A stretch of DNA of 33,616 nucleotides from an uncultured Gammaproteobacteria bacterium (lineage in GTDB: Bacteria; Patescibacteriota; Patescibacteriia; Patescibacteriales; JAGXOH01): assembly GCA_964512155.1 (NCBI GenBank), contig CAZEHL010000003.1, positions 1-33,616 on the forward strand, written 5' to 3'. This document shows, in pieces, positions 2,784 to 33,616 of the stretch. Position 1 is the stretch's first letter, and the number at the start of each line of letters is the position of its first letter. The translations under genes were made by a program, and so were the position numbers. Below the pieces are notes generated by a model. It saw only the letters and a program-made list of their open reading frames with translations, searched no databases and was not told the DNA's origin.

Positions 2784-3005
2784 CAAGGGGGCGACCATTT
2801 ATTTTGTGACAATTTTTGTTCCTTGTCTGCGGACTCCCAATGACAAAAAGTACGGCCGTCTTAGGCTGTGTTTTTATGCATCCTTAAAGATGTTTTTGTT
2901 TAAAATTGTTCCAATGAAAGCCGGATGATGTTTAGTCAATATTGGCATTTTCGGCAGAGTCCCGGGTAAAGATTCTATCGCGATAGATCCGCTCTTATTA
3001 TAATA

Positions 3006-16145: not shown

Positions 16146-16208
16146 ATGATAACTTTACATATTAGCTATAATAGTGTTGTTTAGAAGATGCGGGTAAATA
16201 TTTAAGAA

Positions 16209-16280
16209 GCGAAAGCGATTATTTTTGTTAACTTTGCCTACCTACCATACCCGTAGGTTAACAAAAATAATCGCTTTCTC
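16209..16280. other. Long perfect hairpin (22-bp stem, 24-nt loop), function unknown
   Basis: GAAAGCGATTATTTTTGTTAAC (16211-16232) pairs perfectly with GTTAACAAAAATAATCGCTTTC (16257-16278). The loop contains a nested CCTAC...GTAGG stem. Confidence 0.8.
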
Positions 16281-16354
16281 GAAAAAAGAAGACCGCAGCA
16301 AGCAGATCTAAAAAATTATTAATCATTTTAAATTTAATAACCGACTACATTTAT

Positions 16355-17293: not shown

Positions 17294-17330
17294 TTAAATT
17301 TTAGTATTTTTTGTTTATTTTAGCCTTAAG

Positions 17331-17358
17331 TTGCCAAATTCTCGGTTTCTTTTATAAT
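17331..17358 (+). promoter_or_regulatory. Sigma70-like promoter for the M23 peptidase gene
   Basis: TTGCCA (17331-17336), 16-nt spacer, TATAAT (17353-17358). Confidence 0.45.
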
Positions 17359-17399
17359 AAGATATGTAGTCATCTTTAAAAACGCACTAGGCGTTATAT

Positions 17400-18716: not shown

Positions 18717-18741
18717 ACAATATTATCAAATTCAAAATATT

Positions 18742-20283: not shown

Positions 20284-20367
20284 TCCGCAACGGGTAAAGT
20301 TTTTTCTATAGTCAAGGACCGTTTTATGTGTTAATCTATATATAGATATTAACTTAAATTCAACTAT

Positions 20368-20913
20368 ATGCGGATTGAACAAAAATTACCACAATTCAGC
20401 GATCAAAAAACCCTTATTATAGTTACCGGGCGTCAAGAGGCCGTTGCTTACATTGCCCTAAACGGAGAAATAAAAGAAAAAGAAAGATTGGAAGTGGAAG
20501 ATCCGGGCTACTCCGACAGAGAAGGTTTTTTTATGAGCAGCGGAGGAACAGCCGGAACATACAAAGCCGGTTCTGTATACAAAGAAAACATCACTCAAAA
20601 TTTAACCAAACAATTCTTAAATCAACTTCAAGAAAAGGTAAAAAATTTGGTCAAAAAAGAAAAAGCGGAAACGATCTATTTATTCTGCCCGGATTATATG
20701 AAAAAAGAGATCATGAGCAAATTTCCCAAAGCGTTAAAAAAAGATATTCAAACAATCAGATCCGGGAATTATATCGGGTCTCATCCGTTTGTATTGTTGG
20801 AATATATTAAAAAAGAGGGTGAAAAAAAGAAAGAAAAAACGGTAACCCCCATAAAAGAAAAGGCTATGAAAATATTGAAAAAAACCACCCGCTTTTCCAA
20901 CAAAGACCAATAG
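20368..20913 (+). CDS. Hypothetical protein, possibly Host_attach / bacterial eRF1-like family
   Basis: The layout is collinear with my memory of Host_attach proteins: LIIVTGRQEAVAY, a Gly-rich loop SSGGTAGTYKAGS, then IYLFCPDYMKKEI...GSHP. Tentative. Confidence 0.45.
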   Translation: MRIEQKLPQFSDQKTLIIVTGRQEAVAYIALNGEIKEKERLEVEDPGYSDREGFFMSSGGTAGTYKAGSVYKENITQNLTKQFLNQLQEKVKNLVKKEKAETIYLFCPDYMKKEIMSKFPKALKKDIQTIRSGNYIGSHPFVLLEYIKKEGEKKKEKTVTPIKEKAMKILKKTTRFSNKDQ

Positions 20914-20944
20914 TATTTAAAAGCAAAAGAACAGACTCGGCACG

Positions 20945-20973
20945 AAAAAGCCACTTTATCCCGGTGGCTTTTT
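20945..20973 (+). terminator. Intrinsic terminator
   Basis: AAAAAGCCAC-TTTATCCCG-GTGGCTTTTT. Confidence 0.65.
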
Positions 20974-21026
20974 GAACAAAAGATAAGTTGACTTGTATAA
21001 CTTTTTTATACACATTATTAAAATTT

Positions 21027-21926
21027 ATGGAAGAATGCCGGCTTTACAATAAATTGGATAATAATAAAATCCAATGTTTGGCTTGCTTTCATTTTTGCAT
21101 TGTTGAAGAAGGTAAAACCGGTTTATGCGGTGTCAGGCAAAACAAGAAAGGCGTTTTTTATTCTTTGGTTTACGGCCGGGTTGCCGCGGCCAACATCGAT
21201 CCGGTTGAAAAAAAGCCTTTATTTCATTTTTTGCCCGGAAGTTACGCTTTTTCAGTGGGTACTCTCGGATGCAATTTTTTTTGCGCCAATTGCCAGAATT
21301 TTGATATTTCTCAAATGTTCGGCGCCAAAGGGAATGTGGAAAAATATGGAGAATTTAATTTGGGAGATATCTTATCTCCGGAGCAAATAGTTGCATCGGC
21401 CATTAAATACGGATGTGAAAGCATTGCTTATACTTACAATGAGCCGACCGTTTTTTTGGAGTATGCTTTGGATACAATGAAGATTGCTAAGCAAAAGGGG
21501 GTAAAGAATATTTGGGTATCCAACGGTTATATGTCTGAGCAAACCTTGAATTTGATCGCGCCTTATTTGGATGCGATCAATATAGATATAAAATCTTGGA
21601 GCGAGGATTTTTATAAAGAATACTGCGGAGCCGAGGTGAAGCCCGTATTGGATAATTGCCAAAAATTAAAGGAAGAAGGAGTATGGCCGGAGATAACCAC
21701 TTTATTGATCCCCGGCCTAACCGATAATAATGAAGATATTCAAAGGATAGCCGGCTTTATCAAAAATAAACTGGGGCCGGAAATCCCTTGGCATATATCC
21801 GCTTTTTCTTCCCGAATTTCGTGGAAATTGCAAAATTTGCCCGACACTTCTCCGGAAAAAATGGAGAAAGCGAAAAGAATAGGAGAAGAAGCGGGCTTGA
21901 AATATGTGTATTTGGGTAATATATAA
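21027..21926 (+). CDS. AmmeMemoRadiSam-system-type radical SAM enzyme (PFL-activase-like)
   Basis: CNFFCANC (CxxxCxxC) cluster. N-terminal Cys-rich CLACFHFC...GLCGVRQN and DPVEKKPLFHFLPGS. The ATG at 21027 is preferred over the upstream start at 20988. Confidence 0.8.
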   Translation: MEECRLYNKLDNNKIQCLACFHFCIVEEGKTGLCGVRQNKKGVFYSLVYGRVAAANIDPVEKKPLFHFLPGSYAFSVGTLGCNFFCANCQNFDISQMFGAKGNVEKYGEFNLGDILSPEQIVASAIKYGCESIAYTYNEPTVFLEYALDTMKIAKQKGVKNIWVSNGYMSEQTLNLIAPYLDAINIDIKSWSEDFYKEYCGAEVKPVLDNCQKLKEEGVWPEITTLLIPGLTDNNEDIQRIAGFIKNKLGPEIPWHISAFSSRISWKLQNLPDTSPEKMEKAKRIGEEAGLKYVYLGNI

Positions 21927-21947
21927 TGCTAATAATAAAAATTATAA

Positions 21948-23165
21948 ATGGTTTTTTTTAAAAAGAACAAACAAAAAAACAAGCCTGCGAGAATCGGAAT
22001 TGACGCCCGCTTTTACGGTCCTCCGGGTAAAGGATTGGGAAGATACGCCCAAGAAATAGTGGATAATATCTTGGAAAGGGATAAAGAAAATCAATATGTG
22101 ATCTTTTTGAACAGTGAAAATTATGGAGAGTTGACGGTAAATAACGATAATGTGGAAAAAATTTTAACCGATGTAAGATGGTATACCGTCAAAGAGCAAC
22201 TAATAATGCCTTTTTTGATATGGAAGAAAAAATTGGATCTGATCCATTTTCCCCATTTCAATGTTCCCGTTTTAACCCCGACCAAGTTCGTTGTCACCAT
22301 ACATGACCTTATTTTAACCAAATTTCCCACTCCCCGGGCCTCTACATTGGGGCCGTTCTTGTATAAGATCAAGAATTCGGCTTACAAAATAACCATTAAT
22401 ACCGCCGTTAAAAGAGCCGAAAAAATATTTGCCGTTTCCGAATTTACCAAAAAGGACATTATGGATAAATTCAATGTTCAAGCCGCTAAAATAAAAGTAA
22501 CCTATGAAGGGGTGGCCGAGAATTTTCAACAAAAAAAACATTCATCCCTGTATAAAGATACCAATCTCTCGGATGACAAAAAAATGCTTTTAAGTTATAA
22601 TATAAAAAAGGATTTTTTTCTGTATGTAGGAAACGCTTATCCGCATAAGAACTTGGAAAAATTATTGGATGTATTTAATGAATTCAACCGCCGATATCCG
22701 GATAAACAATTGGTCTTGGTCGGCAAAGAGGATTATTTTTATAAAAGGTTAAAAGAAAAAGCGAGAAAGGATGGCTTGTGGACGGAAAAAAAAGACGGTC
22801 TCCCGGTTGTATTTGCCGGATATGTAAAAGACGAAGATCTAAGGATCTTATATAAAAACGCTTTGGCTTATGTTTTCCCTTCCATGTACGAGGGGTTCGG
22901 TTTACCTCCCTTGGAAGCCATGGCCAACAACTGCTTGGTTTTAAGTTCGGATAAGGCCAGCATGCCGGAGATATTGGGTGAAGCGGCCATATATTTTAAC
23001 CCTGAAAAAAGTAAGGATATATTGGATAAACTTGAAAAGGCGATCCATCTTGAGCGAAGCGAATCGGAAAAAATGAAAGAAAAAGGCAAAAAGCAGGTGG
23101 AAAAATATAGTTGGCAAGAATGTGCCCGAGAAACCCATAAAGTTTATATAAGCATTACCGGATGA
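21948..23165 (+). CDS. Glycosyltransferase family 1 (GT4-type)
   Basis: C-terminal EGFGLPPLEAMA (EX7E region), GT-B length and layout. Confidence 0.85.
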   Translation: MVFFKKNKQKNKPARIGIDARFYGPPGKGLGRYAQEIVDNILERDKENQYVIFLNSENYGELTVNNDNVEKILTDVRWYTVKEQLIMPFLIWKKKLDLIHFPHFNVPVLTPTKFVVTIHDLILTKFPTPRASTLGPFLYKIKNSAYKITINTAVKRAEKIFAVSEFTKKDIMDKFNVQAAKIKVTYEGVAENFQQKKHSSLYKDTNLSDDKKMLLSYNIKKDFFLYVGNAYPHKNLEKLLDVFNEFNRRYPDKQLVLVGKEDYFYKRLKEKARKDGLWTEKKDGLPVVFAGYVKDEDLRILYKNALAYVFPSMYEGFGLPPLEAMANNCLVLSSDKASMPEILGEAAIYFNPEKSKDILDKLEKAIHLERSESEKMKEKGKKQVEKYSWQECARETHKVYISITG

Positions 23166-23276
23166 ATATTCGAAAATAATTTCACTTTTTTATCCGTGGA
23201 AGTTATTAATGTTATTTTTTGGATTTTAATTTTTCCGAACAATTTTTAAAAAGCCTTGAAGACATTGCAAGTATTT

Positions 23277-26237
23277 ATGTTCAGAAGAAAAAGGAAAACA
23301 AAAAAAGATAAAATTGAGAACAATATTGAAAGAGTGGAAAAAGCCGCCGGTTTTGTGGTGGACCTAAAAAGGGGCCTGAATAAACAATTCTATGAAAATG
23401 AATCAAAGGAAGAAGCGCCTCAAAGACCGGAAAGAAAAAAAGAAAAAAGAAAAAAAAGGAGTTTGTTGTTTGTTGTTTTAAAAGTATTTTCTTTGCTTTC
23501 TTTTCTGTCGGTATTAAAGGAAAAAAACAAAAAAGGAGTATTGGATGGCTCCATCGGCTTGGATCGAATTGAAGACAAAAAAGAAAGAAAGAGCAAGAAA
23601 GAAGTTAAAGAAAGGTTAAGCGAGCTTATGATATTCAATGTTTTGAGGGGCACATATAAGATCTGTTATACAGTCGGTTGGTTTACTGTTTTTTTTGTCA
23701 GATTTTCATGGATCTTGGGGTACAGAACATTAAGATCCCTTATTTTTATCGCCTCTTTTGCGAAAAGAAAATTTTCTTTTAACTGTAGAAAAAAAATAAA
23801 AGAAACCGTTTTCTTTTTCGGTGGAAAAATTCAAACGGGCATTAAGTTTTTCCGGAGAAAAATAAAAGATACAAAAGATCGATCCTTTAAAATTATTGAA
23901 AAAAGCTTTTTGTCTTTAAGGGCCATAGCCGGCTTTGCAATTAATGCGGTCGGGACGGTATTCGGAGGTACAAAAAGTTTTTTTATCCGCCGTATCTCGG
24001 ATATAAGAGAAACTTTTTTATTGTGCAAGAAATGCATTCTTTCAATATCGGCCTCCTCGGGGGAAAAGATAAAAAACCTTGGTAAACAAAATCGGGAGAA
24101 AAAGTTGCAAGAAAGGATATGGGAAAAAAACAAGGTTTTGGAAGACATAAAAAATTATAAAAACAACGCTTTAAGAACGATTCCCGTCTTCGCTTTTTTG
24201 GCCGTTTTAATGATAATTCCGTTTAAAGCTATTACATATTACGAATCTTTGCAGATAGATGAATTAAAAAAAGAAGTTTTAGCCTCCACCCAACAGGCGG
24301 CCGCCGACCTTAAAGAAGCCGGAGCCTCGATATCGGCTTTAAATATGGACAAGGCTTATTCCGAGTTCGGAGAAGCCAATATCAATTTTTCCCAAGCCGA
24401 AGACAGAATTGCCAGAATAAACGGAGTTATTTTGGATCTGGCCAAGTTTGTTCCGTCCCAAGACGCTAAAATGGCTTCAATGAGCCGGCATTTAATAGAC
24501 GCCGGCAACCTTATCTCGGAAACGGGAGCGGAGCTGACTTTGGCGTTTGAAGGGATAAAAAAAGCGGATAAAAATGAAATAATAAAAGCCGTAGATGAAT
24601 TTGAGGAACATGGAAACAAAGCCGTAAAAAATTTACAAGAGTTGAACGGCGTTTTGGAAAAAATAGATTCCGAAGCGTTGCCGGAGCAATACCGAGGGAA
24701 AGTAAACGTGTTAAAAAAGGAGGCCGGCAACTTGGAAGATATGTTAACGGAATTGGTCGGCGTTACTAAGGAATTAAAGATACTTTTGGGAGCAGAAAAA
24801 GACAAAAACTATTTGTTGGTATTCCAAAATAATAATGAAGCAAGGGCTACGGGCGGTTTTATAGGCAGTTATGCGTTACTGGAGGTAAGCGAAGGCAGGA
24901 TAGACAATATAGAAGTACCGGCCGGGGGCAGTTATGATGTAAGAGCCGGCATGAGAGAATTCTACGAATCTCCGGAACCTTTACATTTAGTAAGTTCATT
25001 GTGGCATTTTCGGGACGCCAATTGGTGGCCGGATTGGCCCACTTCGGCCGAGAATTTGATGAAATTTTATTCTGACAGCGGAGGTCCCACAACCGACGGA
25101 GTTATAAGCTTCACCCCGACGGTTTTGGAGAGTGTTTTGGATATTACCGGCCCGATCTCCATGGAAGAAGACTATGGAGTGACCTTTACTTCCAAAAATT
25201 GTGAAGAAACGTTAAGGAATATCATTGAAAAAGAAGCCGGCCATGTTGATCCGGCCAAAGCGCGGCGGGAAAACAGGGACGTGACCGAACCCAAAAAAAT
25301 AATCGGCGATCTCATGGATATACTGGTAAAGAAAATAGGCGCCGATTTTGATCGAGATAAATTGATCGAGTTGATCGGAGCCACTTCTGATAACTTGCAA
25401 GAAAAGCAAATTTTATTTTATTTCACTGACAAAGAGTTGCAAAAAGAGATTGAAAAAAGAGGGTGGGGAGGCGAAATAAAAGAAACCGACAGGGATTATT
25501 TGTCGGTTATAAACACCAATATAGCTGGAAGAAAGAGTGACAAGAAAATAAATCAAGAAATAGAGCACAAAGCGACGATCAAACAAGACGGAAGTATTGT
25601 AAATGAAGTAAAAATAAAGAGGCATCATACGGGCGATAAGAACACTCCTTATTACGGAGAGAGAAACGTGAATTGGATGAGGGTTTACGTGCCGGAAGGC
25701 AGTGAGTTTATGGAAGCCAAAGGTTTTGATAATAGACCGGATGAGGTTTATTTTGATTCCCCTGAAAATGATTGGGAAAAACATTCTCTTGTGGAAAAAC
25801 AACAAAGCTCAATGAAAGAAATGGATAGTTCAAAAGCAAAAGTATATAATACCGAAATTTACGATAATGCAAATAAAACCGTAATTGCCGGCTGGTCCAT
25901 GTTGGATCCGGGAGAAAGCGAAATTATAACTTTAAAATATGAATTGCCCTTTAAACTGGTTAAGGAGAAAAAGAATAAGAATAAGAAAAAAGGTTTTTCC
26001 GAGATAGCCAAAGAAATGATAAGCCCGGAGGAGAAAGAATTGTATCCGTATTCTCTATACATACAAAAACAACCGGGAATTAAAACCGACAGCTCCACTG
26101 TCAAAAGCGAGGTAATTTTTTCGGACAGATATTCGGTGATATGGAATTATCCGAAAGGTGCGGAAAATAAAGAAAAAAAATATGAAGCTTCCTTAAATTC
26201 GGATCAGTATTGGGCGGTTTTACTGGAGAAAAAATAA
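23277..26237 (+). CDS. DUF4012-domain surface protein with ~300-aa Lys/Arg-rich N-terminal extension
   Basis: LLVFQNNNEARATGGFIGSYALLEVSEGRI is the DUF4012 signature. The TM helix RTIPVFAFLAVLMIIPF precedes it. The ORF opens at TTG 23256; the first ATG is at 23277. Confidence 0.8.
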   Translation: MFRRKRKTKKDKIENNIERVEKAAGFVVDLKRGLNKQFYENESKEEAPQRPERKKEKRKKRSLLFVVLKVFSLLSFLSVLKEKNKKGVLDGSIGLDRIEDKKERKSKKEVKERLSELMIFNVLRGTYKICYTVGWFTVFFVRFSWILGYRTLRSLIFIASFAKRKFSFNCRKKIKETVFFFGGKIQTGIKFFRRKIKDTKDRSFKIIEKSFLSLRAIAGFAINAVGTVFGGTKSFFIRRISDIRETFLLCKKCILSISASSGEKIKNLGKQNREKKLQERIWEKNKVLEDIKNYKNNALRTIPVFAFLAVLMIIPFKAITYYESLQIDELKKEVLASTQQAAADLKEAGASISALNMDKAYSEFGEANINFSQAEDRIARINGVILDLAKFVPSQDAKMASMSRHLIDAGNLISETGAELTLAFEGIKKADKNEIIKAVDEFEEHGNKAVKNLQELNGVLEKIDSEALPEQYRGKVNVLKKEAGNLEDMLTELVGVTKELKILLGAEKDKNYLLVFQNNNEARATGGFIGSYALLEVSEGRIDNIEVPAGGSYDVRAGMREFYESPEPLHLVSSLWHFRDANWWPDWPTSAENLMKFYSDSGGPTTDGVISFTPTVLESVLDITGPISMEEDYGVTFTSKNCEETLRNIIEKEAGHVDPAKARRENRDVTEPKKIIGDLMDILVKKIGADFDRDKLIELIGATSDNLQEKQILFYFTDKELQKEIEKRGWGGEIKETDRDYLSVINTNIAGRKSDKKINQEIEHKATIKQDGSIVNEVKIKRHHTGDKNTPYYGERNVNWMRVYVPEGSEFMEAKGFDNRPDEVYFDSPENDWEKHSLVEKQQSSMKEMDSSKAKVYNTEIYDNANKTVIAGWSMLDPGESEIITLKYELPFKLVKEKKNKNKKKGFSEIAKEMISPEEKELYPYSLYIQKQPGIKTDSSTVKSEVIFSDRYSVIWNYPKGAENKEKKYEASLNSDQYWAVLLEKK

Positions 26238-26270
26238 ACCATCATCCATTCCATTCTGTAAATAAATAAT

Positions 26271-28322
26271 ATGAAGAAAAATAATAAAAAGACAAAAAAA
26301 AGCGAAGAAAAGGTGGGTAAAAAGACGGAAAAAAGATCGAGCATCGCCGAGTTCGTTAAGAGGCCTTTGCCAACTGACAATGAAATGAAAAGATTTGAGG
26401 ACTATTTGACCGATCAAATGGAGAGAGACAATCAAAAAGGCGGGGGATTCGCGGACAAAGAAGAAAGAGAAGGCGATATAAATGATAGTCTGACTGAAAT
26501 ATATAAGGACTCCAAAGGAAATCCGGTGGATGTTGATAAGCTGGAAATAAAAAAGGGCAGAGGTATAATTTTCTGGTTCTTTTCCCTTCTCTTTTTCGTG
26601 TTGTTCTGCTTGGGGGCCGGCATGTATGGTTATTATTATATGTTCAATACGGGGTCCGGCTTGGAAGAAGTGGATATAAAAATAGAAGCCGAAGAAAGCG
26701 TTCTGGCGAACGAAGTGTTCACTTATAACATCATCTGCGAAAATAGAAGCAGGGTTCCTTTAAAGGATGCAAGGTTGGATATTAATTATCCGGACAATTT
26801 TATTTTGCTTAATTCCTCAAAAGAGCCGGACGAAGGAGATAATAGCTGGTCATTCGATAACATTCCGGCCGGCGAAGACAAGAAAATAAGCATAGAAGGC
26901 AAAATAATCGACAAAAAAAACTCCTCCAATGTTTTGTTGGCAACAATGAACTATATTCCTGAAAATTTTTCCAGTGAATTCAAAAAAGAAGACTCCTCCA
27001 ATTTAAAAATAAAAGAGACCGGAATCAATATAGCGGTTGAACATCCTTCCGATGTTTTGGTGGGAGAAGAGGAGGTAATTTCATTTGATCTGGAACCTCA
27101 AAAAGAGAATTTTATAGACGAATTCCAAATAAAAGGAAATATACCGGACAACATGGAGATACTTGATACTTCTTTATCCGGCAACCAAACTGAAGGTGCC
27201 GAAGAAAGCTCCGGTAAAGTGGAGGAGATTGAAAAAGGAAGGTGGAAGATCAAAGAATTGGGTGATGGGGAGCATAAATTGGATATAAAATTCAGATTCA
27301 ATGAAAAAGCTTCCGGTACCGAAGATATTGACTTTGATATTATAAAACAGGAAGAAAACAGGGATCATATCTTTGACACGAAAGAATTTTTTATAAAAGT
27401 CTTGGAAAGCGACTTGGAATTAAATATGATAATAGAAGGAGAAAAAGATGACCAAGCGGTCGATTTCGGGCAAAAACTGAATTATTCCATAACATATGCC
27501 AACAGAGGAGAATCGACTATGAAAAATGTGCTTATTATGGCGGTACTGGAGAACGGATTTTTGGATTGGACAACCTTGAAAGACGGCAATAACGGAGAAG
27601 AAAAAGGAAACACCATTACCTGGTCCGGCGAGGAAGTGCCGAAATTGGAAAAATTGGAACCGGGACAAGAAGGCAGTATAGATTTTTCCTTGAATGTGGT
27701 TGATTTTAGGGAAGAGATGCTGGAAAAAAAGAATTTTCAAATAAGAAGTTACGCCCAATACGAGATAAAAGGCGATAAAGAATCCTCCATCACCATAGAA
27801 GACAATAAAAGCAATGAGATCATAAATAAAATCAACAGCGATGTAAACATAAGTGAAGAGATCAGATATTTTGATGAAAGTAATATGCCGGTAGGATCCG
27901 GCCCCTTACCTCCCAGAGTGGGAGAAAAAACAGAGTTTAAAGTATATTGGACCGTTACCAATAATTTGCATAATCTAATCGACGGTAAAGTGGAGATGGA
28001 ATTGCCGGACCATATTGAATGGGAGGGGAAAAGCAGGGCTTCGGCCGGAAATATCGATTATAAAGAAGAAGAGGGAAAGGTTGTTTGGAATATCGGCAAA
28101 ATGCCGACAACCGTCTACCGTCTTGACGGCCAATTCAATATTTCCTTGACCCCCAAAAAAGAAGATATTGATAAAATAATGGTGCTATCTTCCGGCGCTG
28201 AAATTTCAGCCAAAGATGAGAACACCGAGGCGATCATAGAAAAGAAAGAAGAACCGGCAACCACTAAATTGAAAGATGATGATATTGCCGATATGAATAG
28301 CGACGGACGAGTGGTTGAATAA
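26271..28322 (+). CDS. Membrane-anchored protein with DUF11/CARDB-like repeat domains
   Basis: Basic cytoplasmic N-tail and one TM helix (IIFWFFSLLFFVLFCLGAGMYGYYY). Repeat-domain signatures: VFTYNIICENRSRVPLKDARLDINYP and LNYSITYANRGESTMKNVLIMAVL. Confidence 0.7.
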   Translation: MKKNNKKTKKSEEKVGKKTEKRSSIAEFVKRPLPTDNEMKRFEDYLTDQMERDNQKGGGFADKEEREGDINDSLTEIYKDSKGNPVDVDKLEIKKGRGIIFWFFSLLFFVLFCLGAGMYGYYYMFNTGSGLEEVDIKIEAEESVLANEVFTYNIICENRSRVPLKDARLDINYPDNFILLNSSKEPDEGDNSWSFDNIPAGEDKKISIEGKIIDKKNSSNVLLATMNYIPENFSSEFKKEDSSNLKIKETGINIAVEHPSDVLVGEEEVISFDLEPQKENFIDEFQIKGNIPDNMEILDTSLSGNQTEGAEESSGKVEEIEKGRWKIKELGDGEHKLDIKFRFNEKASGTEDIDFDIIKQEENRDHIFDTKEFFIKVLESDLELNMIIEGEKDDQAVDFGQKLNYSITYANRGESTMKNVLIMAVLENGFLDWTTLKDGNNGEEKGNTITWSGEEVPKLEKLEPGQEGSIDFSLNVVDFREEMLEKKNFQIRSYAQYEIKGDKESSITIEDNKSNEIINKINSDVNISEEIRYFDESNMPVGSGPLPPRVGEKTEFKVYWTVTNNLHNLIDGKVEMELPDHIEWEGKSRASAGNIDYKEEEGKVVWNIGKMPTTVYRLDGQFNISLTPKKEDIDKIMVLSSGAEISAKDENTEAIIEKKEEPATTKLKDDDIADMNSDGRVVE

Positions 28323-28377
28323 AGCCTTAACCCTTTATTTCGCTGTATTGTTTAAATAATATTTTTATTACATTATT

Positions 28378-31149
28378 ATGAAAAAAAATTCCAAATTCGT
28401 TTTATTACTTTTCCTTCTGTTTGTCAGTGCCGCTTTTATTTATTCAAAAGAAAAAGAAATCGACACATTTTTGAATATGAGGGCTCAAGCCCAAGACGAA
28501 CCGGATGCCGTTGCGGTCCGCATTCTACCCAATCCGGACCACCTTGATCCGCTTCGGTGGTATAAGGAACAGGGGTTTAAGGGTGATCCGGAAAGAATAA
28601 CAGTGGATGGCTACAACGGGATTAAAAATGACAGAACGGCCTATGTTAACGTCGGCCATGAGTCGGGAGGAGATTTTTATAACAACATCTATGTCTTTTC
28701 TTACACCCAGGACGCAAGCGCCAACACAGTGGAGATATTCAATAGATTTTTGGATAATTGGACATTCAACACCAACCAAATAGAAGAAGAAGATGATCTG
28801 GGATATTGTGCCATTTCCACTATAAATTGTGTTGAGGACGATGATTGTTCAGAAGAATACAAATGCAGTGATAACCGAAAATGCGTCCCGGAAGATCCCA
28901 TAAGATGCTACAAAGATTCGGCTTGTCCGGACAATATATATTGCGATAGCGACAAGGCCAAAACAACAAGGGATACGGAACGGTTGGCCGGAATGAAAGA
29001 AATCGAAATATTGGCCGATCATTACAAGGACATTCACGGACATTACCCCAAATTGGAAGCGGGAACTTATTTATCCGGCAAAACCGTGTCGGTTTGGCCC
29101 AGTTGGGAGGATAAGTTCCAACAAGAGATGTCGGATGTTATCGCCGAATATTCAGTGTTCAACTCTTTGCCCCGGGATCCGATAAACAGATTGGCCAGAT
29201 GTTCCGAAAGCTCATCTCCTCAATATGATCAAACCACCTGCTGGGATGAGCAAGACAAAACCTTTGCGGGAGATGTATCGGAGGATTCCATCGTTCTTCC
29301 CACCCACTCCGGAACTCATCCATACACCGGCGAAAGCCATGAATATGAGAGCCATGCTTATACTTATGTTTACGGCAGTTTTGATGTTTGCTCTCCTCTG
29401 GAAAACCCCGATATTATTAATGTGGGGAATTTTTTTAGAGGATCTTGCACTCCGGATTCCGGCAATAATGCTTCTTTGAGAAGATCCACGGAAAATAATC
29501 CTCCGGAAATTATGTGCGGCACTTTGTCCGCCCACCCGGGAAGTGAATTGTCCGCTTACATTCAAGCTCAGGATCCGGACGGAGACGCCATCTCCGATTG
29601 GAGTATTTCCGGCGCCGATTGGTCGGGATGGTCTTTAGAGCTACAAGAATCTCCGATGGAAGGATTTATAAGAGTTTATTCTCCTTCAGTCGGGGAAGAA
29701 GGGACTTACGATTTTCAACTGACCGCCACCGACAATCAAGGCAATTCCGGTTCGGCCACTTGCGGCATAGAAGTGGGCAATAGCGCTCCTTCGGTATCGG
29801 TTGATTGTGATAATCAAATAAGAGTAAATGATGATTATTCCTGCAATATCAATGTTTATGAACCGGATGGAGATGAAGTAAGTTACGACATTAGTGGTCT
29901 GCCTCCGGGTTTAAGCCACTCATCCGGTTATATTCAAGGCACCCCTTCTTCTAAGGGAGAATATCCTATAAATATTTCAGTTGAAGATCCTTTCGGTAAA
30001 GAGGATTCAACTTCTTATACTTTAAGGGTTAATACTTACTGCGGAGACGGAACCGTCCAAAACCCTAACGGAGAGGGAGTTGAAGAAGAATGCGATGATG
30101 GAGAAGATAATGGAGAAGTATGCGACCCCGACTACAACGACCCTTGCGAATATTGTAGCAATTCTTGCCAATTGATCAGCAAGAACGCCCCGGGAGAGTG
30201 TGGAAACGGAATAGTGGAAGCCGAATATGGAGAGGATTGCGATCCTCCGAATGAAAGTGATAATTGTAATGAAAATTGCCATTGGGGATGTTTTAATTAT
30301 GATGAAGACGTTAGTTTAAGTTTTGCCGAGGGTTCGCAAGCTCAGTTAGCCAAAGATGAATCAACAACTTTATCATTGCCGGTTTGCACCGGAGTGAAAA
30401 CTGATAGTTTTAAAGTTGATGTAGAAATGATAGATGTTTCTTCCGGTGATTCCATGGGAGTTGTGTTTGTAACCGATACCTCCGGAAGCATGGGAGGGGA
30501 AATAGGAGATGTAAGGGAGGCCATTAAGGATAGTATAGACCAACTGAATAGTGAATTAACCAATCCGACCGAGGTGGGATTGGTGGAATTCTCAAGTAGT
30601 TTGGAATCCAGCCATGGCCCCTTGGAATTGAATAATTCCAATGCGGACACATTAAAAAATTATGTTGATAGTTATAACGACGGCGGAGGAACAGATGTAA
30701 GCGCCGGCACCAACGAGGCCTATGACATGCTGAGTTCCGGAGGATATGATGATAAAATTATGGTGATCTTGGCCGATGGTGACGGAGGAGATCCGGAATT
30801 GGAGGCGGCCAAAGGGGAAGGAATGGAGATCTACACCATAGCTTACGGAGGCGGAGCTCCCGATATGGAGGATTGGGCCACTGATCCAAGTTATGCTTAT
30901 AGCGGCAGTGATGCCGACCAGGTCTATAATGATATAACAGAGTCAATTATAACCAGTCCGGAAGGAGATATTGAGGTGGTTGTAAACGGTAATGTCAACA
31001 CAATAGAGGCCGAGGATGATACCAATGTGTCTTTGTCCGGAGTGTCGTGCGACTCTGATAATGAAAGTTTAATAAATTTTAGTAATAATTTCGAACAAGG
31101 GGAGGTAAGGTATAGTAATCCACGCATTGATATATGCACCATTGATTAA
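28378..31149 (+). CDS. Large mosaic surface protein: pilin-like core, Cys-rich repeats, two Ig/cadherin-like (He_PIG-type) domains, C-terminal vWA domain
   Basis: N-terminal anchor. RDTERLAGMKEIEILADHYKDIHGHYP...LPRDP (pilin/GspG-like). AQDPDGD and YEPDGDEVSYDISGLPPGL...GTPSSKGEYPINI. CGDGTVQ...EECDDG and CGNGIVE...EDCDP. MIDAS motif DTSGSMGG...GGGTD...ADGDG. Confidence 0.8.
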   Translation: MKKNSKFVLLLFLLFVSAAFIYSKEKEIDTFLNMRAQAQDEPDAVAVRILPNPDHLDPLRWYKEQGFKGDPERITVDGYNGIKNDRTAYVNVGHESGGDFYNNIYVFSYTQDASANTVEIFNRFLDNWTFNTNQIEEEDDLGYCAISTINCVEDDDCSEEYKCSDNRKCVPEDPIRCYKDSACPDNIYCDSDKAKTTRDTERLAGMKEIEILADHYKDIHGHYPKLEAGTYLSGKTVSVWPSWEDKFQQEMSDVIAEYSVFNSLPRDPINRLARCSESSSPQYDQTTCWDEQDKTFAGDVSEDSIVLPTHSGTHPYTGESHEYESHAYTYVYGSFDVCSPLENPDIINVGNFFRGSCTPDSGNNASLRRSTENNPPEIMCGTLSAHPGSELSAYIQAQDPDGDAISDWSISGADWSGWSLELQESPMEGFIRVYSPSVGEEGTYDFQLTATDNQGNSGSATCGIEVGNSAPSVSVDCDNQIRVNDDYSCNINVYEPDGDEVSYDISGLPPGLSHSSGYIQGTPSSKGEYPINISVEDPFGKEDSTSYTLRVNTYCGDGTVQNPNGEGVEEECDDGEDNGEVCDPDYNDPCEYCSNSCQLISKNAPGECGNGIVEAEYGEDCDPPNESDNCNENCHWGCFNYDEDVSLSFAEGSQAQLAKDESTTLSLPVCTGVKTDSFKVDVEMIDVSSGDSMGVVFVTDTSGSMGGEIGDVREAIKDSIDQLNSELTNPTEVGLVEFSSSLESSHGPLELNNSNADTLKNYVDSYNDGGGTDVSAGTNEAYDMLSSGGYDDKIMVILADGDGGDPELEAAKGEGMEIYTIAYGGGAPDMEDWATDPSYAYSGSDADQVYNDITESIITSPEGDIEVVVNGNVNTIEAEDDTNVSLSGVSCDSDNESLINFSNNFEQGEVRYSNPRIDICTID

Positions 31150-31174
31150 TAATATATAACTATAATATATAATT

Positions 31175-32086
31175 ATGTTTAATAAAAAAGAAAAAATTAT
31201 AATTTATTTTTTTTTCGGAATTATTTTGTTAATAATAATGTTGTTTTTTGTTTTTACTAAAAATCAAAATTTATCTGATAAACCGGAAAATTTAACAAAT
31301 GAAAACGAGAAAGAAATTGTAAAAGATCAAGACTCTTTAGAGGACGATAAGAAAAGCGAGGATTCTACAGAAGACACGGAGAGACAATCTCGTCAAGAGA
31401 TTGACAATATTTACGCAAAAGCTCAAAAATCCAATAGTATAGATGAGTGTCAAAATATTAAAAATAAAGAAACAAAAGATCATTGTATTATGAATCTGGC
31501 TTTGTCTAATGATAATAACAATGATTGCGAAGTTATAAGTGATGAAAGGATAAAACAAGATTGCATCAACAATATTTATTTAAAACAAGCCAAATCAACT
31601 CAAGATATTAGTGTGTGCGAAAAAATGCTTTCAGATAAATATAAAGAAAAATGTGTTGCCTCTGTCGTTAACGAAATTGATGATCCGCAAAATATTGAAA
31701 TATGCAATACCCTGGAAGGTGAAGCAAAAAGTACTTGTCGTGATAGAATAAATTTTAATTTGGCGATAAAAGAGCAAGATATGAAAGCTTGTGAAGAAAT
31801 CAACTCTGAATTGGAAAGAAAAGAATGTATAAATAAAATGATATTTGAATTAAAATTAAGGGATACCGATGAATGCCAAAAAAATCTTAATGGAGTCGGG
31901 GTCGAATACTGCAAGGAGAAACTAACAAAATTTTTAAATAGTGAAGAATTTGATTTTGATCAAGACGGACTTAGCAATGCGGAAGAAAAAAAGCATGGAA
32001 CCGATCCCTATTTAGAAGATACGGACGGGGACGGTTATAATGACAAAGAAGAAGTGGAAAAAGGATATAATCCAAGCGGAAATTAA
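31175..32086 (+). CDS. Membrane-anchored protein with six C-x(10-11)-C repeats and C-terminal TSP3-type calcium-binding repeats
   Basis: Anchor IIIYFFFGIILLIIMLFFVF. Six units such as CQNIKNKETKDHC and CEVISDERIKQDC. Tail DQDGLSNAEEKKHGTDPYLEDTDGDGYNDKEE. Confidence 0.7.
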   Translation: MFNKKEKIIIYFFFGIILLIIMLFFVFTKNQNLSDKPENLTNENEKEIVKDQDSLEDDKKSEDSTEDTERQSRQEIDNIYAKAQKSNSIDECQNIKNKETKDHCIMNLALSNDNNNDCEVISDERIKQDCINNIYLKQAKSTQDISVCEKMLSDKYKEKCVASVVNEIDDPQNIEICNTLEGEAKSTCRDRINFNLAIKEQDMKACEEINSELERKECINKMIFELKLRDTDECQKNLNGVGVEYCKEKLTKFLNSEEFDFDQDGLSNAEEKKHGTDPYLEDTDGDGYNDKEEVEKGYNPSGN

Positions 32087-32120
32087 AATAGATCTAATTA
32101 TAAAAAAGAAAAGCGATCAT

Positions 32121-33203
32121 ATGATTCAAAATAAATTTATATATAATAAAAATAGGAACTTGCAGGTTCCTATTTTTATGCCGGATGCCACTCGAGGGCT
32201 TATAAAGCTTTTAAGTTCTCGGGAACTTAAAGATAGCGGAATTGAAGCTTTGGTCGTGAATGCTTACCACTTGCATCTACAACCCGGCACAGAGATCATA
32301 AAAAAGGCCGGGGGAATACATTCTTTTATGAATTGGGATCGCCCCATTCTTTCCGATAGCGGAGGATTTCAGATCTTTTCTTTAATTTACAATAATCCCA
32401 AAATGGGGAAAATAATGCCGGATAAAGTGATTTTCAAATCTCCTTTAGACGGCCAAGAAATAGAGTTTACCCCTGAAAGATCAATTCAAATTCAGTTTGA
32501 TCTGGGGGTGGACATGATGGTCTGTTTGGATGATTGTCCTCCCAACAGCGCTCGTCCGGAGGATGTGAGATCATCAGTGCAAAGAACAATAGAATGGGCC
32601 CGAAAATGCAAAAATGAATATGAGAAGCAGATCAAAAAAAGAAAGATCTCAAATAACAGTAGGCCTTTACTGTTTAGTGTTGTCCAGGGCGGCAATGACA
32701 TAAAGTTGCGCAAACAATGCGCCCAAGAATTGCAAAACATCGGATTCGACGGTTATGGATTCGGAGCCATGCCTTTGGATGCCGAAGGTAAATTCAATGT
32801 CCGATTATTAAAAAAAGTGGCCGAATTTATCCCGGATAATTCTTTAAAATTCGCTTTGGGCGTGGGAAACCCGGAAAATATTGTTAAATGCCGGGATCTG
32901 GGATGGGATATGTTTGATTGTGTTATACCCACCAGGGAGGGCAGGCATGGCAAATTGATGTTCAGGAAAGCCGAAAACCGATTGCGTTCTTTAAATTTCT
33001 ATTATTCTTTAAATATCGGCAATACCAAGTTTAAAAAGGATTTTTCTTCAATAAATACAAACAGTCGAATAAAAGAATTGAACGAATATAGTAAAGCATA
33101 TCTTCATCATCTTTTTAAGATCAAAGATCCCTTGGGATATCGTTTGGCAAGCTTAAATAATTTGGAGTTTTATTCTCGATTATTAAAAGAATTAAAGATG
33201 TAA
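32121..33203 (+). CDS. tgt: tRNA-guanine transglycosylase (Tgt) homolog, divergent
   Basis: Collinear with bacterial Tgt: FMPDAT, SDSGGFQ, LDDCPP, VVQGG, DMFDCVIPTREGRHG, YSKAYLHHL. The ATG at 32121 avoids overlap with the previous gene. See the findings for the missing active-site and zinc residues. Confidence 0.8.
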   Translation: MIQNKFIYNKNRNLQVPIFMPDATRGLIKLLSSRELKDSGIEALVVNAYHLHLQPGTEIIKKAGGIHSFMNWDRPILSDSGGFQIFSLIYNNPKMGKIMPDKVIFKSPLDGQEIEFTPERSIQIQFDLGVDMMVCLDDCPPNSARPEDVRSSVQRTIEWARKCKNEYEKQIKKRKISNNSRPLLFSVVQGGNDIKLRKQCAQELQNIGFDGYGFGAMPLDAEGKFNVRLLKKVAEFIPDNSLKFALGVGNPENIVKCRDLGWDMFDCVIPTREGRHGKLMFRKAENRLRSLNFYYSLNIGNTKFKKDFSSINTNSRIKELNEYSKAYLHHLFKIKDPLGYRLASLNNLEFYSRLLKELKM

Positions 33204-33270
33204 GATCTGGGCCGTTCCGATCCAAAATCGAAAAATAATGCTAACAAGTATTAAAAATAAAAGAGCAAAG

Positions 33271-33299
33271 TTGACTATAGTCTCTTTATATATTATATT
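33271..33299 (+). promoter_or_regulatory. Orphan sigma70-like promoter upstream of rnpB
   Basis: TTGACT (33271-33276), 17-nt spacer, TATATT (33294-33299). No obvious gene lies before rnpB. Confidence 0.35.
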
Positions 33300-33365
33300 T
33301 TAACAATGTTTGGAAAATCAAACCCCCAAACTATAATAAGGTTATTGCTTTTTAAAATTTAACTG

Positions 33366-33395
33366 TTGAACATTCAAAATTGATGGCGGTAATAT
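33366..33395 (+). promoter_or_regulatory. Sigma70-like promoter for RNase P RNA
   Basis: TTGAAC (33366-33371), 18-nt spacer, TAATAT (33390-33395), just before the first helix of the RNA. Confidence 0.45.
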
Positions 33396-33399
33396 TGGA

Positions 33400-33616
33400 A
33401 TAAGCGGAGGATCGCCCCCGCCGTTTGTAAGCGGCGGGGGAGGAAAGTCCGGACTCCCTCTGTTGTTGTTAACAATGGAGAGCGGGTAGTGGGTAACACC
33501 CACCGCCCCGCCGTTCGTGAACGGCGGGGTAGGGAAAGTGCCGCAGAGACTATACTACCCAGCCCCGGTTTTATGTTTATGTTAATGGCAAAGTATAAAT
33601 ATCTTTGCAAGGGTAG
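33400..33616 (+). ncRNA. rnpB: RNase P RNA (bacterial type), 5' portion, truncated by the window edge
   Basis: The universally conserved P4 strand GGAGGAAAGTCCGGACTCC is present, preceded by the P3-like hairpin CCCCCGCCG...CGGCGGGGG. Downstream are GGGTAACACCCACC and GGGAAAGTGCCGCAGAGA, which match the conserved GGUAACGCC and AAGUGCCACAGAAA regions. Confidence 0.85.

What the first reader, a model, noticed from the sequence alone, without database searches (positions are those of the whole stretch)
32121..33203. Tgt homolog that appears to lack the catalytic nucleophile Asp and all four zinc ligands
I aligned this protein by eye to E. coli Tgt as I remember it. SDSGGFQ (general acid/base Asp) and LDDCPP are retained. 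However, the GVGKPEDLV segment reads GVGNPENIV, so the nucleophile Asp is Asn (codon AAT at 32877-32879, one nucleotide away from GAT). The zinc site PECDCYTCRNYSRAYLHH ... IHNLRYY reads INTNSRIKELNEYSKAYLHH ... LNNLEFY, so all three Cys and the His are gone (about nt 33043-33170). The preQ1-pocket segment GGLAVGE reads GAMPLDAE. Together these changes suggest a catalytically altered or non-canonical Tgt. It could have a different substrate, act as a non-catalytic subunit-like protein, or use a different mechanism. It lies directly downstream of the surface gene cluster and next to rnpB.
Basis: partly seen in the sequence, partly recalled or inferred. Interest (0 to 1): 0.6.

Follow-up and report, generated by a model that had tools for sequence, protein, structure and literature searches.

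The report
Zinc-free but catalytically intact tRNA-guanine transglycosylase
This gene encodes a queuosine-pathway tRNA enzyme (Tgt) that keeps every catalytic residue but has replaced all four ligands of a structural zinc site that a 2010 survey of the family called absolutely conserved, and the same replacement is shared by many related ultra-small (Patescibacteria) bacteria.

Summary
ORF 32121-33203 (+) is a real bacterial-type Tgt (Pfam TGT E 5e-97; NCBIfam Tgt equivalog 316.9 bits, cut-off 306.75).

The claim of a lost nucleophile is wrong. The AAT codon at 32877-79 aligns to Z. mobilis Asp267, a variable non-catalytic position. The true nucleophile (Zm Asp280) is Asp266, GAT 32916-18. Zm Asp102, Asp156 and Gln203 are also kept.

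The zinc claim is right. Zm Cys318/Cys320/Cys323/His349 are Ser315/Ile317/Leu320/Asn346. This is not a lesion:
- All 121 closest proteins have Ser and Leu at the first and third positions.
- 77 of 80 species genomes with the closest Tgt lack the site.
- All 27 scorable loci from the window's own family and order lack it.
- 14 of 29 sampled families of the class lack it.
- Catalytic residues are kept in almost every row.

The genome has a single tgt plus queA and queH. No queC, queD, queF, YhhQ or QueT was found. One relative has queA-queH-tgt adjacent.

Best reading: an active, zinc-independent Tgt that inserts salvaged preQ1. The variant pocket loop (Pro at the peptide-switch position) belongs to a separate, deep Tgt subtype.

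No structure model could be made because the tools were off.

The parts
32121..33203 (+). tgt coding sequence (360 aa, P0001). The start at 32121 agrees with the N-termini of the nearest relatives.
32355..32357 (+). Asp79 (GAT), equivalent to Z. mobilis Asp102. Retained.
   Evidence: 121 of 121 homologues have Asp
32529..32531 (+). Asp137 (GAT), equivalent to Zm Asp156 (base recognition). Retained. The Cys two residues on (Zm Cys158) is also kept.
32763..32786 (+). Pocket loop G215-A-M-P-L-D-A-E222, aligned to Zm 229-235 with one extra residue. Ala replaces Zm Gly230. Met-Pro replaces the Leu231/Ala232 peptide switch. Asp220 is near-invariant in the clade.
32877..32879 (+). It aligns to Zm Asp267, a position that varies across the family.
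32916..32918 (+). Asp266 (GAT), equivalent to Zm Asp280, the true catalytic nucleophile. Retained.
32961..32993 (+). 11-residue insertion (residues 281-291) relative to Z. mobilis TGT. Relatives also carry an insertion here, of varying length.
33054..33080 (+). Former zinc knuckle: Asn312, Ser315 (Zm Cys318), Ile317 (Zm Cys320), Leu320 (Zm Cys323).
33087..33110 (+). Dimer-interface helix. Tyr323, Tyr327 and His330 correspond to Zm Trp326, Tyr330 and His333. The partner Phe69 (Zm Phe92) is at 32325-27.
33156..33167 (+). Asn346 (Zm His349) and Glu349. Together with Asn312, Ser315 and Leu320 they form the zinc-less signature.
33396..33616 (+). 5' part of rnpB (bacterial RNase P class A). It continues to contig position 34128. 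A neighbour, with no functional link shown.
31175..32086 (+). Upstream ORF with bacterial TSP3 repeats, the last gene of the surface-protein cluster. A neighbour only.

Best explanation
The gene encodes an active bacterial-type tRNA-guanine(34) transglycosylase. It exchanges G34 of GUN-anticodon tRNAs for a 7-deazaguanine precursor, most likely salvaged preQ1. QueA and QueH then convert that precursor to queuosine on the tRNA.

Catalysis is canonical. Asp266 is the nucleophile forming the covalent enzyme-tRNA intermediate. Asp79, Asp137 and Gln189 line the base pocket.

The difference lies in the C-terminal subdomain. In every described Tgt this subdomain is held by a Cys3-His zinc ion. Here it is stabilised without those ligands: two positions are hydrophobic (Ile317, Leu320) and polar residues appear alongside (Asn312, Ser315, Asn346, Glu349).

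Shown here: homology, retention of the catalytic and dimer-interface residues, substitution of all four ligands, conservation of the substitution across a large lineage, and co-occurrence with queA and queH.

Inferred, not shown: enzymatic activity, absence of any metal, homodimer formation, and preQ1 as the base.
For: Family and catalytic residues:
- PF01702 E 5e-97. TIGR00430 is above its cut-off.
- The alignment to Z. mobilis TGT chains shows Asp102, Asp156, Gln203 and Asp280 retained and the four ligands replaced.

The replacement is conserved, with catalytic residues kept:
- Query plus its 120 best database hits (57-91% identity): Ser at Zm 318 in 121 of 121, Leu at Zm 323 in 121 of 121, a hydrophobic residue at Zm 320 in 117 of 121, Asn at Zm 349 in 118 of 121. 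Asp102, Asp156 and Asp280 are present in 121 of 121.
- 80 species genomes with the closest Tgt: 77 lack the CCCH site, 3 keep it, and all 80 keep D-D-Q-D.
- 29 loci from the window's family and order: 27 of the 27 that include the C-terminus are S-hydrophobic-L-N.
- A six-position signature (Asn312, Ser315, hydrophobic 317, Leu320, Asn346, Glu349) separates 120 zinc-less sequences from 91 CCCH sequences.

Dimer interface:
- The aromatic residues (Zm Phe92, Trp326, Tyr330, His333) are Phe69, Tyr323, Tyr327 and His330.

Genomic context:
- One TGT gene in the genome. queA scores 396 bits. queH scores 223 bits.
- Among 41 relatives, 38 have Tgt, 30 have QueA and 30 have QueH. By my count from the tables have all three.
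- In G336, queA, queH and a zinc-less tgt are adjacent on one strand.
- tRNA-Asp(GTC) and tRNA-Asn(GTT) are present.
- No QueF, QueD, YhhQ or QueT match. The weak QueC hits are MnmA and a ThiI-like protein.
Against: - No structure model could be made. The claim that the subdomain folds without metal is therefore inference from sequence.
- As I recall (paper not read here), Chong et al. 1995 (cited in that paper) found that mutating the zinc ligands of E. coli Tgt damages the enzyme. Loss of zinc is therefore not trivially tolerated.
- The pocket loop departs from the canonical one. Pro sits at the Leu231/Ala232 peptide-switch position. The residue aligned to Glu235 is not conserved in the clade: Glu in 37 of 121. 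Base selection may therefore differ.
- No preQ1 transporter was found.
- Seven genomes of the same family have this type of Tgt but no QueA or QueH match. The link to QueA and QueH is not universal.
- tRNA-His and tRNA-Tyr were not found in the 90.8%-complete assembly.
Confidence: 0.72

Rival explanations
1. Same enzyme chemistry, but a different base substrate. The variant pocket (Ala for Zm Gly230, Met/Arg-Pro for the Leu231/Ala232 switch, invariant Asp220) would select another 7-deazaguanine, such as preQ0 or queuine, instead of preQ1.
For: - The pocket loop differs from the canonical g-g-l-a-v-g-e.
- Pro has no amide hydrogen. The guanine/preQ1 peptide flip described in PMC3660597 therefore cannot work the same way.
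- The pocket type is a deep, well-supported split of the family: SH-aLRT 100, and one change on the barrel tree.
- No de novo preQ1 genes or known transporters were found.
- Seven genomes of the same family have Tgt without QueA or QueH.
Against: - queA and queH are present in this genome. They are adjacent to a tgt with the same pocket type in G336. QueA needs the aminomethyl group of preQ1-tRNA, by established knowledge of the pathway.
- Zm Cys158 is kept, and a bulky residue (Leu/Val/Ile) sits at Zm Val233. PMC3660597 treats these as the bacterial-type determinants.
- Both pocket types co-occur with QueA and QueH in the order.
Confidence: 0.15
2. The site still binds a metal, but a hard cation such as Mg, Ca or Na. 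The ligands would be the oxygen-donor residues that replaced or accompany the old ones (Asn312, Ser315, Asn346, Glu349). This would be a metal swap rather than a metal-free fold.
For: Four polar O-donor residues appear together and are near-invariant only in zinc-less forms. Glu349 is in 100% of 120 zinc-less sequences against 0% of 91 CCCH sequences. Asn312 is in 97% against 0%.
Against: - Two of the four former ligand positions became purely hydrophobic (Ile/Leu317, Leu320). That looks like core filling.
- No geometry is available because no model could be made.
- The same residues fit an H-bond network equally well.
Confidence: 0.1
3. One reading: a catalytically dead or subunit-like Tgt homologue, analogous to eukaryotic QTRT2.
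For: The zinc site and the pocket loop are non-canonical. The NCBIfam equivalog score is only about 10 bits above its cut-off.
Against: - All catalytic residues are retained and invariant in the clade.
- Per PMC3660597, QTRT2 does the opposite. It keeps the zinc ligands and lacks the catalytic residues.
- There is only one TGT-family gene in the genome.
- queA and queH are present.
Confidence: 0.02
4. Decaying gene or assembly or sequencing artefact.
For: None beyond the unusual residues.
Against: - The frame is intact.
- The identical substitutions occur in well over 100 independent sequences.
- Contigs from runs of another study match.
Confidence: 0.01

Closest known systems
Bacterial tRNA-guanine(34) transglycosylase Tgt (Z. 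mobilis and E. coli type; PF01702, TIGR00430)
   Same: - Alignment runs nearly end to end (query 11-358 to chain 34-361, E about 1e-68).
- Nucleophile Asp280, Asp102, Asp156, Gln203 and Cys158 are kept.
- The dimer-interface aromatic residues are kept.
- It works with QueA and QueH.
   Different: - All four Cys3-His zinc ligands are replaced.
- The pocket loop has Ala for Gly230, Met-Pro for Leu231-Ala232, and one extra residue.
- There is an 11-residue insertion after the catalytic strand.
- The query's first 10 residues stand where the Z. mobilis chain has 33, and both termini fall short of the Pfam model's ends (profile positions 11-336 of 357).
Phage 9g DpdA (DNA 7-deazaguanine transglycosylase of the TGT superfamily)
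   Same: It is a precedent for a degenerate zinc site in the superfamily. PMC5699537 states that two of its four zinc-site residues are not conserved (passage read).
   Different: - DpdA acts on DNA and has an arcTGT-like pocket.
- It loses only two ligands.
- The present protein is a tRNA-type Tgt by HMM. It has no dpd neighbours in the stretch scanned, 14499-33203.
Eukaryotic QTRT2 (QTRTD1), the non-catalytic Tgt subunit
   Same: It is a TGT-family member that departs from the canonical residue set.
   Different: The pattern is opposite. QTRT2 keeps the zinc ligands and lacks the catalytic residues (PMC3660597; PMC3074131). PDB QTRT2 chains match the query only at E about 1e-10, over residues 111-277.
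QueA-QueH-Tgt 'late pathway only' gene sets in DPANN archaea
   Same: PMC8204110 (passages read) reports co-localised QueA, a QueH-like protein and Tgt in small-genome symbionts. The same three genes occur here. In relative G336 they are adjacent.
   Different: In the passages I read, that paper does not discuss zinc ligands.

Membership tests
Bacterial Tgt (tRNA-guanine(34) transglycosylase, PF01702 / TIGR00430) | Sequence-family score above the curated cut-offs | tested here: met
   PF01702 325.6 bits against 26.3. TIGR00430 316.9 bits against 306.75.
Bacterial Tgt (tRNA-guanine(34) transglycosylase, PF01702 / TIGR00430) | Catalytic nucleophile Asp (Zm Asp280) | tested here: met
   Asp266, GAT 32916-18. 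Present in 121 of 121 homologues. Role taken from PMC3660597 and PMC5699537.
Bacterial Tgt (tRNA-guanine(34) transglycosylase, PF01702 / TIGR00430) | Purine-pocket residues Zm Asp102, Ser103, Asp156, Gln203 | tested here: met
   Asp79, Ser80, Asp137 and Gln189. Residue list from PMC5699537.
Bacterial Tgt (tRNA-guanine(34) transglycosylase, PF01702 / TIGR00430) | Zm Gly230 and the Leu231/Ala232 peptide switch with Glu235 | tested here: not met
   The query has Ala216, Met217-Pro218 and an extra residue. The position aligned to Glu235 is Glu in only 37 of 121 clade members. Placement of the loop alignment is uncertain without a structure.
Bacterial Tgt (tRNA-guanine(34) transglycosylase, PF01702 / TIGR00430) | Structural zinc site Cys318, Cys320, Cys323, His349, called absolutely conserved in PMC3074131 | tested here: not met
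   Ser315, Ile317, Leu320 and Asn346. Literature statement read.
Bacterial Tgt (tRNA-guanine(34) transglycosylase, PF01702 / TIGR00430) | Homodimer-interface aromatic cluster (Zm Phe92, Trp326, Tyr330, His333) | tested here: met
   Phe69, Tyr323, Tyr327 and His330. The preprint says Trp326 is Phe or Tyr in most bacteria. Dimer formation itself was not tested, because complex prediction did not complete.
Bacterial Tgt (tRNA-guanine(34) transglycosylase, PF01702 / TIGR00430) | Downstream pathway enzymes QueA and QueG or QueH in the genome, and GUN-anticodon tRNAs | tested here: met
   queA, queH, tRNA-Asp GTC and tRNA-Asn GTT. tRNA-His and tRNA-Tyr were not found in the 90.8%-complete assembly.
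Bacterial Tgt (tRNA-guanine(34) transglycosylase, PF01702 / TIGR00430) | Guanine/preQ1 exchange activity on tRNA | not testable with these tools
   Needs an enzyme assay or complementation.
QTRT2-like non-catalytic subunit | Catalytic residues lost, zinc ligands kept, and a catalytic paralogue in the same genome | tested here: not met
   Catalytic residues are kept and zinc ligands lost. The genome has a single TGT gene.
Archaeosine TGT (TIGR00432) | Score above the equivalog cut-off, with C-terminal C1/C2/PUA domains | tested here: not met
   80.8 bits against a cut-off of 350. The protein ends 12 residues after the L-E-F-Y motif.
DpdA (DNA transglycosylase) | dpd gene-cluster context and an arcTGT-like pocket | tested here: inconclusive
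   The 10 scanned ORFs between 14499 and 32086 are surface, cell-wall and housekeeping proteins, and rnpB lies downstream. Only Tgt models appear among the NCBIfam hits. No DpdA-specific model or PADLOC scan was run.

The most novel reading that the evidence does not exclude
Patescibacterial Tgt has replaced the supposedly invariant Cys3-His zinc knuckle with one recurring metal-free solution: Asn312, Ser315, hydrophobic 317, Leu320, Asn346, Glu349. This solution appears in two deeply separated Tgt subtypes. Trees of the barrel and of the C-terminal module disagree. The zinc-free module may therefore have spread by exchange between tgt alleles, or arisen repeatedly by convergence. Either could be an adaptation of these tiny-genome organisms to zinc-poor, for example sulfidic, habitats.
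Probability: 0.35. Interest if true: 0.55.

Novelty: new variant of a known kind. Interest (0 to 1): 0.42.

Why it matters
The Tgt zinc site is described as absolutely conserved in bacteria, archaea and eukaryotes. One phylogenetic study even discarded sequences lacking it as suspect (PMC3074131).

A large natural lineage that keeps all catalytic and dimer-interface residues, keeps the downstream queuosine enzymes, and has no zinc ligands would show that the zinc is dispensable for the fold. It also offers a ready-made design for a metal-free C-terminal subdomain.

It bears on how queuosine modification survives metal limitation. PMC9894224 treats Tgt as a zinc metalloenzyme in the queuosine pathway of metal-starved A. 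baumannii.

Practically, annotation pipelines and alignment-based filters should not treat absence of the CxCxxC...H motif as a sign of a broken tgt.

The accompanying pocket subtype, with Pro at the peptide-switch position, is a second lead that can be tested separately.

Tried and rejected
Structure and complex tools:
- A homodimer prediction (two copies, alignment A1) was sent three times as the same request. It did not complete and gave no result.
- The ESM Atlas does not hold the query. The stored homologue P0048 returned only ordinary TGT clusters and has no structure model.

Sequencing runs:
- The look-up of sequencing runs listed no RNA holder.
- Read laying used Logan contigs only, so it gives no read-level allele support.
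- In run X2, the contig over 32960-33207 has 9 differences, of which 5 are listed. None of the listed ones falls in a former-ligand codon. 23 differences over the whole stretch were not shown, so for X2 this remains unverified.

Literature searches for a described zinc-less tRNA Tgt. None of these found such a description. The library lacks most subscription journals, and supplements were closed:
- 'queuosine' + 'Patescibacteria': 3 irrelevant papers.
- 'tRNA-guanine transglycosylase' / 'zinc' / 'Candidate Phyla Radiation'.
- 'queuosine' + 'Candidate Phyla Radiation'.
- 'tRNA-guanine transglycosylase' + 'zinc-independent'.
- The four ligand names.
- 'TGT superfamily' / 'zinc' / 'DpdA'.

Candidates considered and rejected:
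- The weak QueC matches are MnmA (390 bits) and a ThiI-like PP-loop protein.
- The radical SAM gene at 20988-21926 is not QueE. It is an AmmeMemoRadiSam-type enzyme.

Not searched: QueE, FolE, QueG, and queuine-salvage families other than YhhQ and QueT.

Considered but not run: a check for genome-wide zinc economy, such as Cys-less forms of ribosomal proteins.

Trees:
- The FastTree included the zinc columns and is only an overview.
- Searches used the quick IQ-TREE search with LG+G4.
- The C-terminal tree rests on 77 columns and has 3 starred branches. The module-exchange idea is a lead, not a result.

Rows dropped:
- One search left out P0004 and P0027 (short) from the alignment.
- One search kept 133 rows: 123 of the 151 rows of the alignment (the query plus 150 representatives; length 330-470 aa, at most one gap at the four sites) plus 10 clade members.
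- One search kept full-length rows only (340-450 aa).
- One search used 120 zinc-less sequences and 91 CCCH sequences.

The tally of 263 of 301 phylum genomes with a Tgt match includes the unpublished genome G154. No other claim rests on it.
Full report
**What is there.**
The window holds an intact ORF at 32121-33203 on the + strand, 360 aa. It scores as Pfam TGT (E 5.1e-97, 325.6 bits). It passes the NCBIfam equivalog for tRNA guanosine(34) transglycosylase, at 316.9 bits against a cut-off of 306.75. The archaeosine model fails, at 80.8 bits against 350. Against the PDB sequences the best matches are Z. mobilis TGT chains (E about 1e-68, query 11-358 to chain 34-361), then T. maritima, QTRT1 and, far weaker, QTRT2. 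The start at 32121 matches the N-termini of the closest relatives.

**The nucleophile claim is a mis-assignment.**
I counted residues along the HMMER alignment, whose chain numbering equals the Z. mobilis numbering. The segment g-v-g-k-p-d-d-i-v is Zm 261-269.

The nucleophile is Zm Asp280 (passages in PMC3660597, and PMC5699537). It lies in d-m-f-d-c-v, which the query keeps letter for letter. Asp266 is GAT at 32916-18.

Zm Asp102, Asp156 and Gln203 are also kept, as Asp79, Asp137 and Gln189. In the query plus its 120 best database hits, Asp102, Asp156 and Asp280 are invariant (121 of 121) and Gln203 is present in 120 of 121.

The Zm 267 position is Asp in 118 of those 121. Among 50%-identity representatives it varies (N, D, E, H, S, A, Q), including in proteins with a full zinc site. 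The Asn is real. P0002, a 91%-identical protein from another record, shares it. A contig of a run from another study covers 32787-33057 without a difference.

**The zinc claim is correct, and it is a lineage trait.**
Zm Cys318, Cys320, Cys323 and His349 align to Ser315, Ile317, Leu320 and Asn346. The same replacement recurs at every sampling depth:

| Sample | Zinc-site state | Catalytic D-D-Q-D |
|---|---|---|
| Query plus 120 best hits (57-91% identity) | Zm 318: Ser 121/121. Zm 320: I 62, L 46, F 5, V 3, M 1 (hydrophobic in 117); T 2, S 1, N 1. Zm 323: Leu 121/121. Zm 349: Asn 118, H 1, Q 1, S 1 | the three Asp 121/121; Gln 120/121 |
| 80 species genomes with the closest Tgt (54-63% identity; titled Patescibacteria, Falkowbacteria, Parcubacteria and others) | 77 lack CCCH (72 S-x-[L/I/V]-N/S, 5 S-I-L-H); 3 keep CCCH | 80/80 |
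| 29 loci from the window's family and order | all 27 that include the C-terminus are S-hydrophobic-L-N | 26 full; 1 with His for Gln; 2 cut at the N-terminus |
| 29 families of the same class | 15 CCCH; 14 not (8 S-x-L-N, 2 with the loop deleted, 4 other patterns) | 29/29 |
| 150 nearest 50%-identity cluster representatives | 135 cover the C-terminus: 100 have 4/4 ligands, 3 have 3/4, 2 have 2/4, 14 have 1/4, 16 have 0/4 | kept in almost every full-length row; the exceptions are gapped or truncated rows |

I compared 120 zinc-less clade members with 91 CCCH proteins. Six C-terminal positions switch together: Asn312 (Asp in 70% of CCCH forms), Ser315, hydrophobic 317, Leu320, Asn346 and Glu349 (0% in CCCH forms).

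This is what purifying selection on a working alternative looks like. It is not decay.

**Is the rest of the machine intact?**
The dimer-interface aromatic cluster is Zm Phe92', Trp326, Tyr330 and His333 (preprint 10.1101/2020.09.01.277731, passages read). The preprint notes that Trp326 is Phe or Tyr in most bacteria. In the query these are Phe69, Tyr323, Tyr327 and His330. The helix that follows the former zinc knuckle is therefore conserved.

**Genomic logic.**
The assembly is 950,593 bp in 84 contigs and 90.8% complete. It has one TGT-family gene. It has queA (396 bits) and queH (223 bits).

No match was found for QueF, QueD/PTPS, YhhQ/Vut_1 or QueT. The only QueC matches are the PP-loop ends of MnmA and a ThiI-like protein. 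tRNA-Asp(GTC) and tRNA-Asn(GTT) are present. tRNA-His and tRNA-Tyr are not in the assembly.

Among 41 genomes of the family and order, 38 have Tgt, 30 have QueA and 30 have QueH. By my count from the tables have all three. In G336, queA (C10:423-1397), queH (1464-1982) and a zinc-less tgt (2080-3189) are adjacent on one strand.

The same three-gene late pathway, co-localised, has been reported in DPANN archaea (PMC8204110, passages read).

The simplest reading is that a precursor base, most likely preQ1, is taken up by an unidentified route. Tgt inserts it, and QueA and QueH finish it on the tRNA.

**The pocket loop.**
The query reads G-A-M-P-L-D-A-E where the Z. mobilis chain has g-g-l-a-v-g-e. 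In the clade the motif is G-A-[R 100 / M 20]-[P 103 / H 18]-[V/I/L]-D, with Asp in 119 of 121.

This is not peculiar to zinc-less proteins. The nearest CCCH relatives read GG[W/R]P[L/I/V]D.

I built a tree of 78 sequences with the zinc columns removed. It splits with SH-aLRT 100 into this type I pocket and the canonical type II pocket, GGL[A/S]VG. Both types occur in the window's own order, and both are zinc-less there.

PMC3660597 describes a flip of the Leu231/Ala232 peptide bond. It exposes C=O to preQ1 or N-H to guanine, and Glu235 steers it. A Pro at position 232 has no amide hydrogen. The residue aligned to Glu235 is unconserved in the clade. By inference, type I enzymes cannot use that switch in the same way.

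This is the main reason I keep an altered-specificity rival at 0.15. The presence of queA and queH, together with retention of Zm Cys158 and a bulky residue at Zm 233, argues for preQ1.

**How often was zinc lost?**

| Tree | Rows and columns | Fewest changes of zinc state | Fewest changes of pocket type |
|---|---|---|---|
| FastTree overview, zinc columns included | 133 rows | 17 | not counted |
| IQ-TREE quick, zinc regions dropped | 78 rows, 369 columns | 14 | not counted |
| Barrel only, pocket loop dropped | 78 rows | 17 | 1 |
| C-terminal module only, six signature columns dropped | 78 rows, 77 columns, 3 starred branches | 8 | 12 |

The two halves therefore tell different stories. Possible causes are exchange of the C-terminal module between tgt alleles, repeated convergence on one solution, or simply lack of resolution. 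I leave this open.

**Comparison with what is known.**
[quoted passage not shown] It also says that sequences lacking them were deleted from its data set.

PMC5699537 describes the zinc domain as involved in dimerisation. It notes that phage 9g DpdA lacks two of the four ligands. That is the only precedent I found in the superfamily.

Six literature searches found no description of a zinc-less tRNA Tgt.

**Verdict.**
The gene is a Tgt by sequence family, catalytic residues, dimer interface and pathway context. It fails two features of the canonical definition: the zinc site and the peptide-switch loop. I therefore file it as a new variant of a known kind, not as a standard member.

The second observation, no zinc ligands, is confirmed and turns out to be widespread in a class of Patescibacteria.

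Activity, metal content, dimerisation and base specificity are inferred, not shown.

Noticed in passing
L005:1498-2397 (-) = G000:C2, QueH match at C2:29588-30106: The genome's QueH is a 299-aa ORF. The QueH domain covers residues 127-298. Ahead of it is an N-terminal extension of about 125 aa with a sub-threshold VanZ-like (membrane protein) match, 27.9 bits against a cut-off of 30.1. Many relatives also show open frames of 300-370 aa around QueH. This may be a membrane-anchored epoxyqueuosine reductase.
   Followed up: partly
G302-G308 (family f1, genera g249 and g250): Seven genomes of the window's own family (80-90% complete) have this type of Tgt but no QueA or QueH match. The window's genus (G000, G301) has both. 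Those lineages may stop at the inserted base, or may insert a finished base.
   Followed up: no
G336:C10:423-3189 (part of it is L096): queA, queH and a zinc-less tgt are adjacent on one strand in a relative. In the window's genome the three genes lie on three different contigs (C22, C2, C3).
   Followed up: partly
L110, L112, L114, L115 against the other loci: Two deeply separated Tgt subtypes, the canonical GGL[A/S]VG pocket and the G[G/A][R/M][P/H]xD pocket, occur in different genomes of one order. Both are zinc-less. Trees of the barrel and of the C-terminal module disagree.
   Followed up: partly
window 33396-33616, continuing to G000:C3:34128 (L001:2749-3481): The rnpB match spans 733 nt for a 367-position Rfam model, matched end to end. 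The RNase P RNA therefore carries large insertions.
   Followed up: no
G322:C18:45573-46341: Next to an intact tgt (C18:42851-43912) lie tgt-like fragments with several in-frame stops. This looks like a decayed second copy.
   Followed up: no
G312:C8:14420-15559; G327:C42:17281-18390; G329:C70:905-2107: In several relatives the Tgt match is split into two parts within one open frame of 408-449 aa. This suggests lineage-specific insertions, near residue 178 or near residue 288.
   Followed up: no
window 20988-21926 (+), 14499-16145 (+), 23256-31149 (+): The window also holds an AmmeMemoRadiSam-type radical SAM enzyme (299 bits), a PIF1-like helicase with an HTH_40 domain, and three large surface-type proteins (DUF4012; DUF11; Ig/VWA).
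   Followed up: no
whole genome G000: aragorn reports two tmRNA hits. It finds no tRNA-His, Tyr, Gln or Trp among its 36 tRNA hits. The latter is probably due to assembly gaps.
   Followed up: no
window 32000-33400: Contigs 99% or more identical to parts of this stretch occur in runs labelled microbial mat metagenome (X3, X4) from a study other than that of the likely source run. X2 (hypersaline lake metagenome, same study as X3 and X4) holds contigs ranging from under 90% to over 99% identity.
   Followed up: partly
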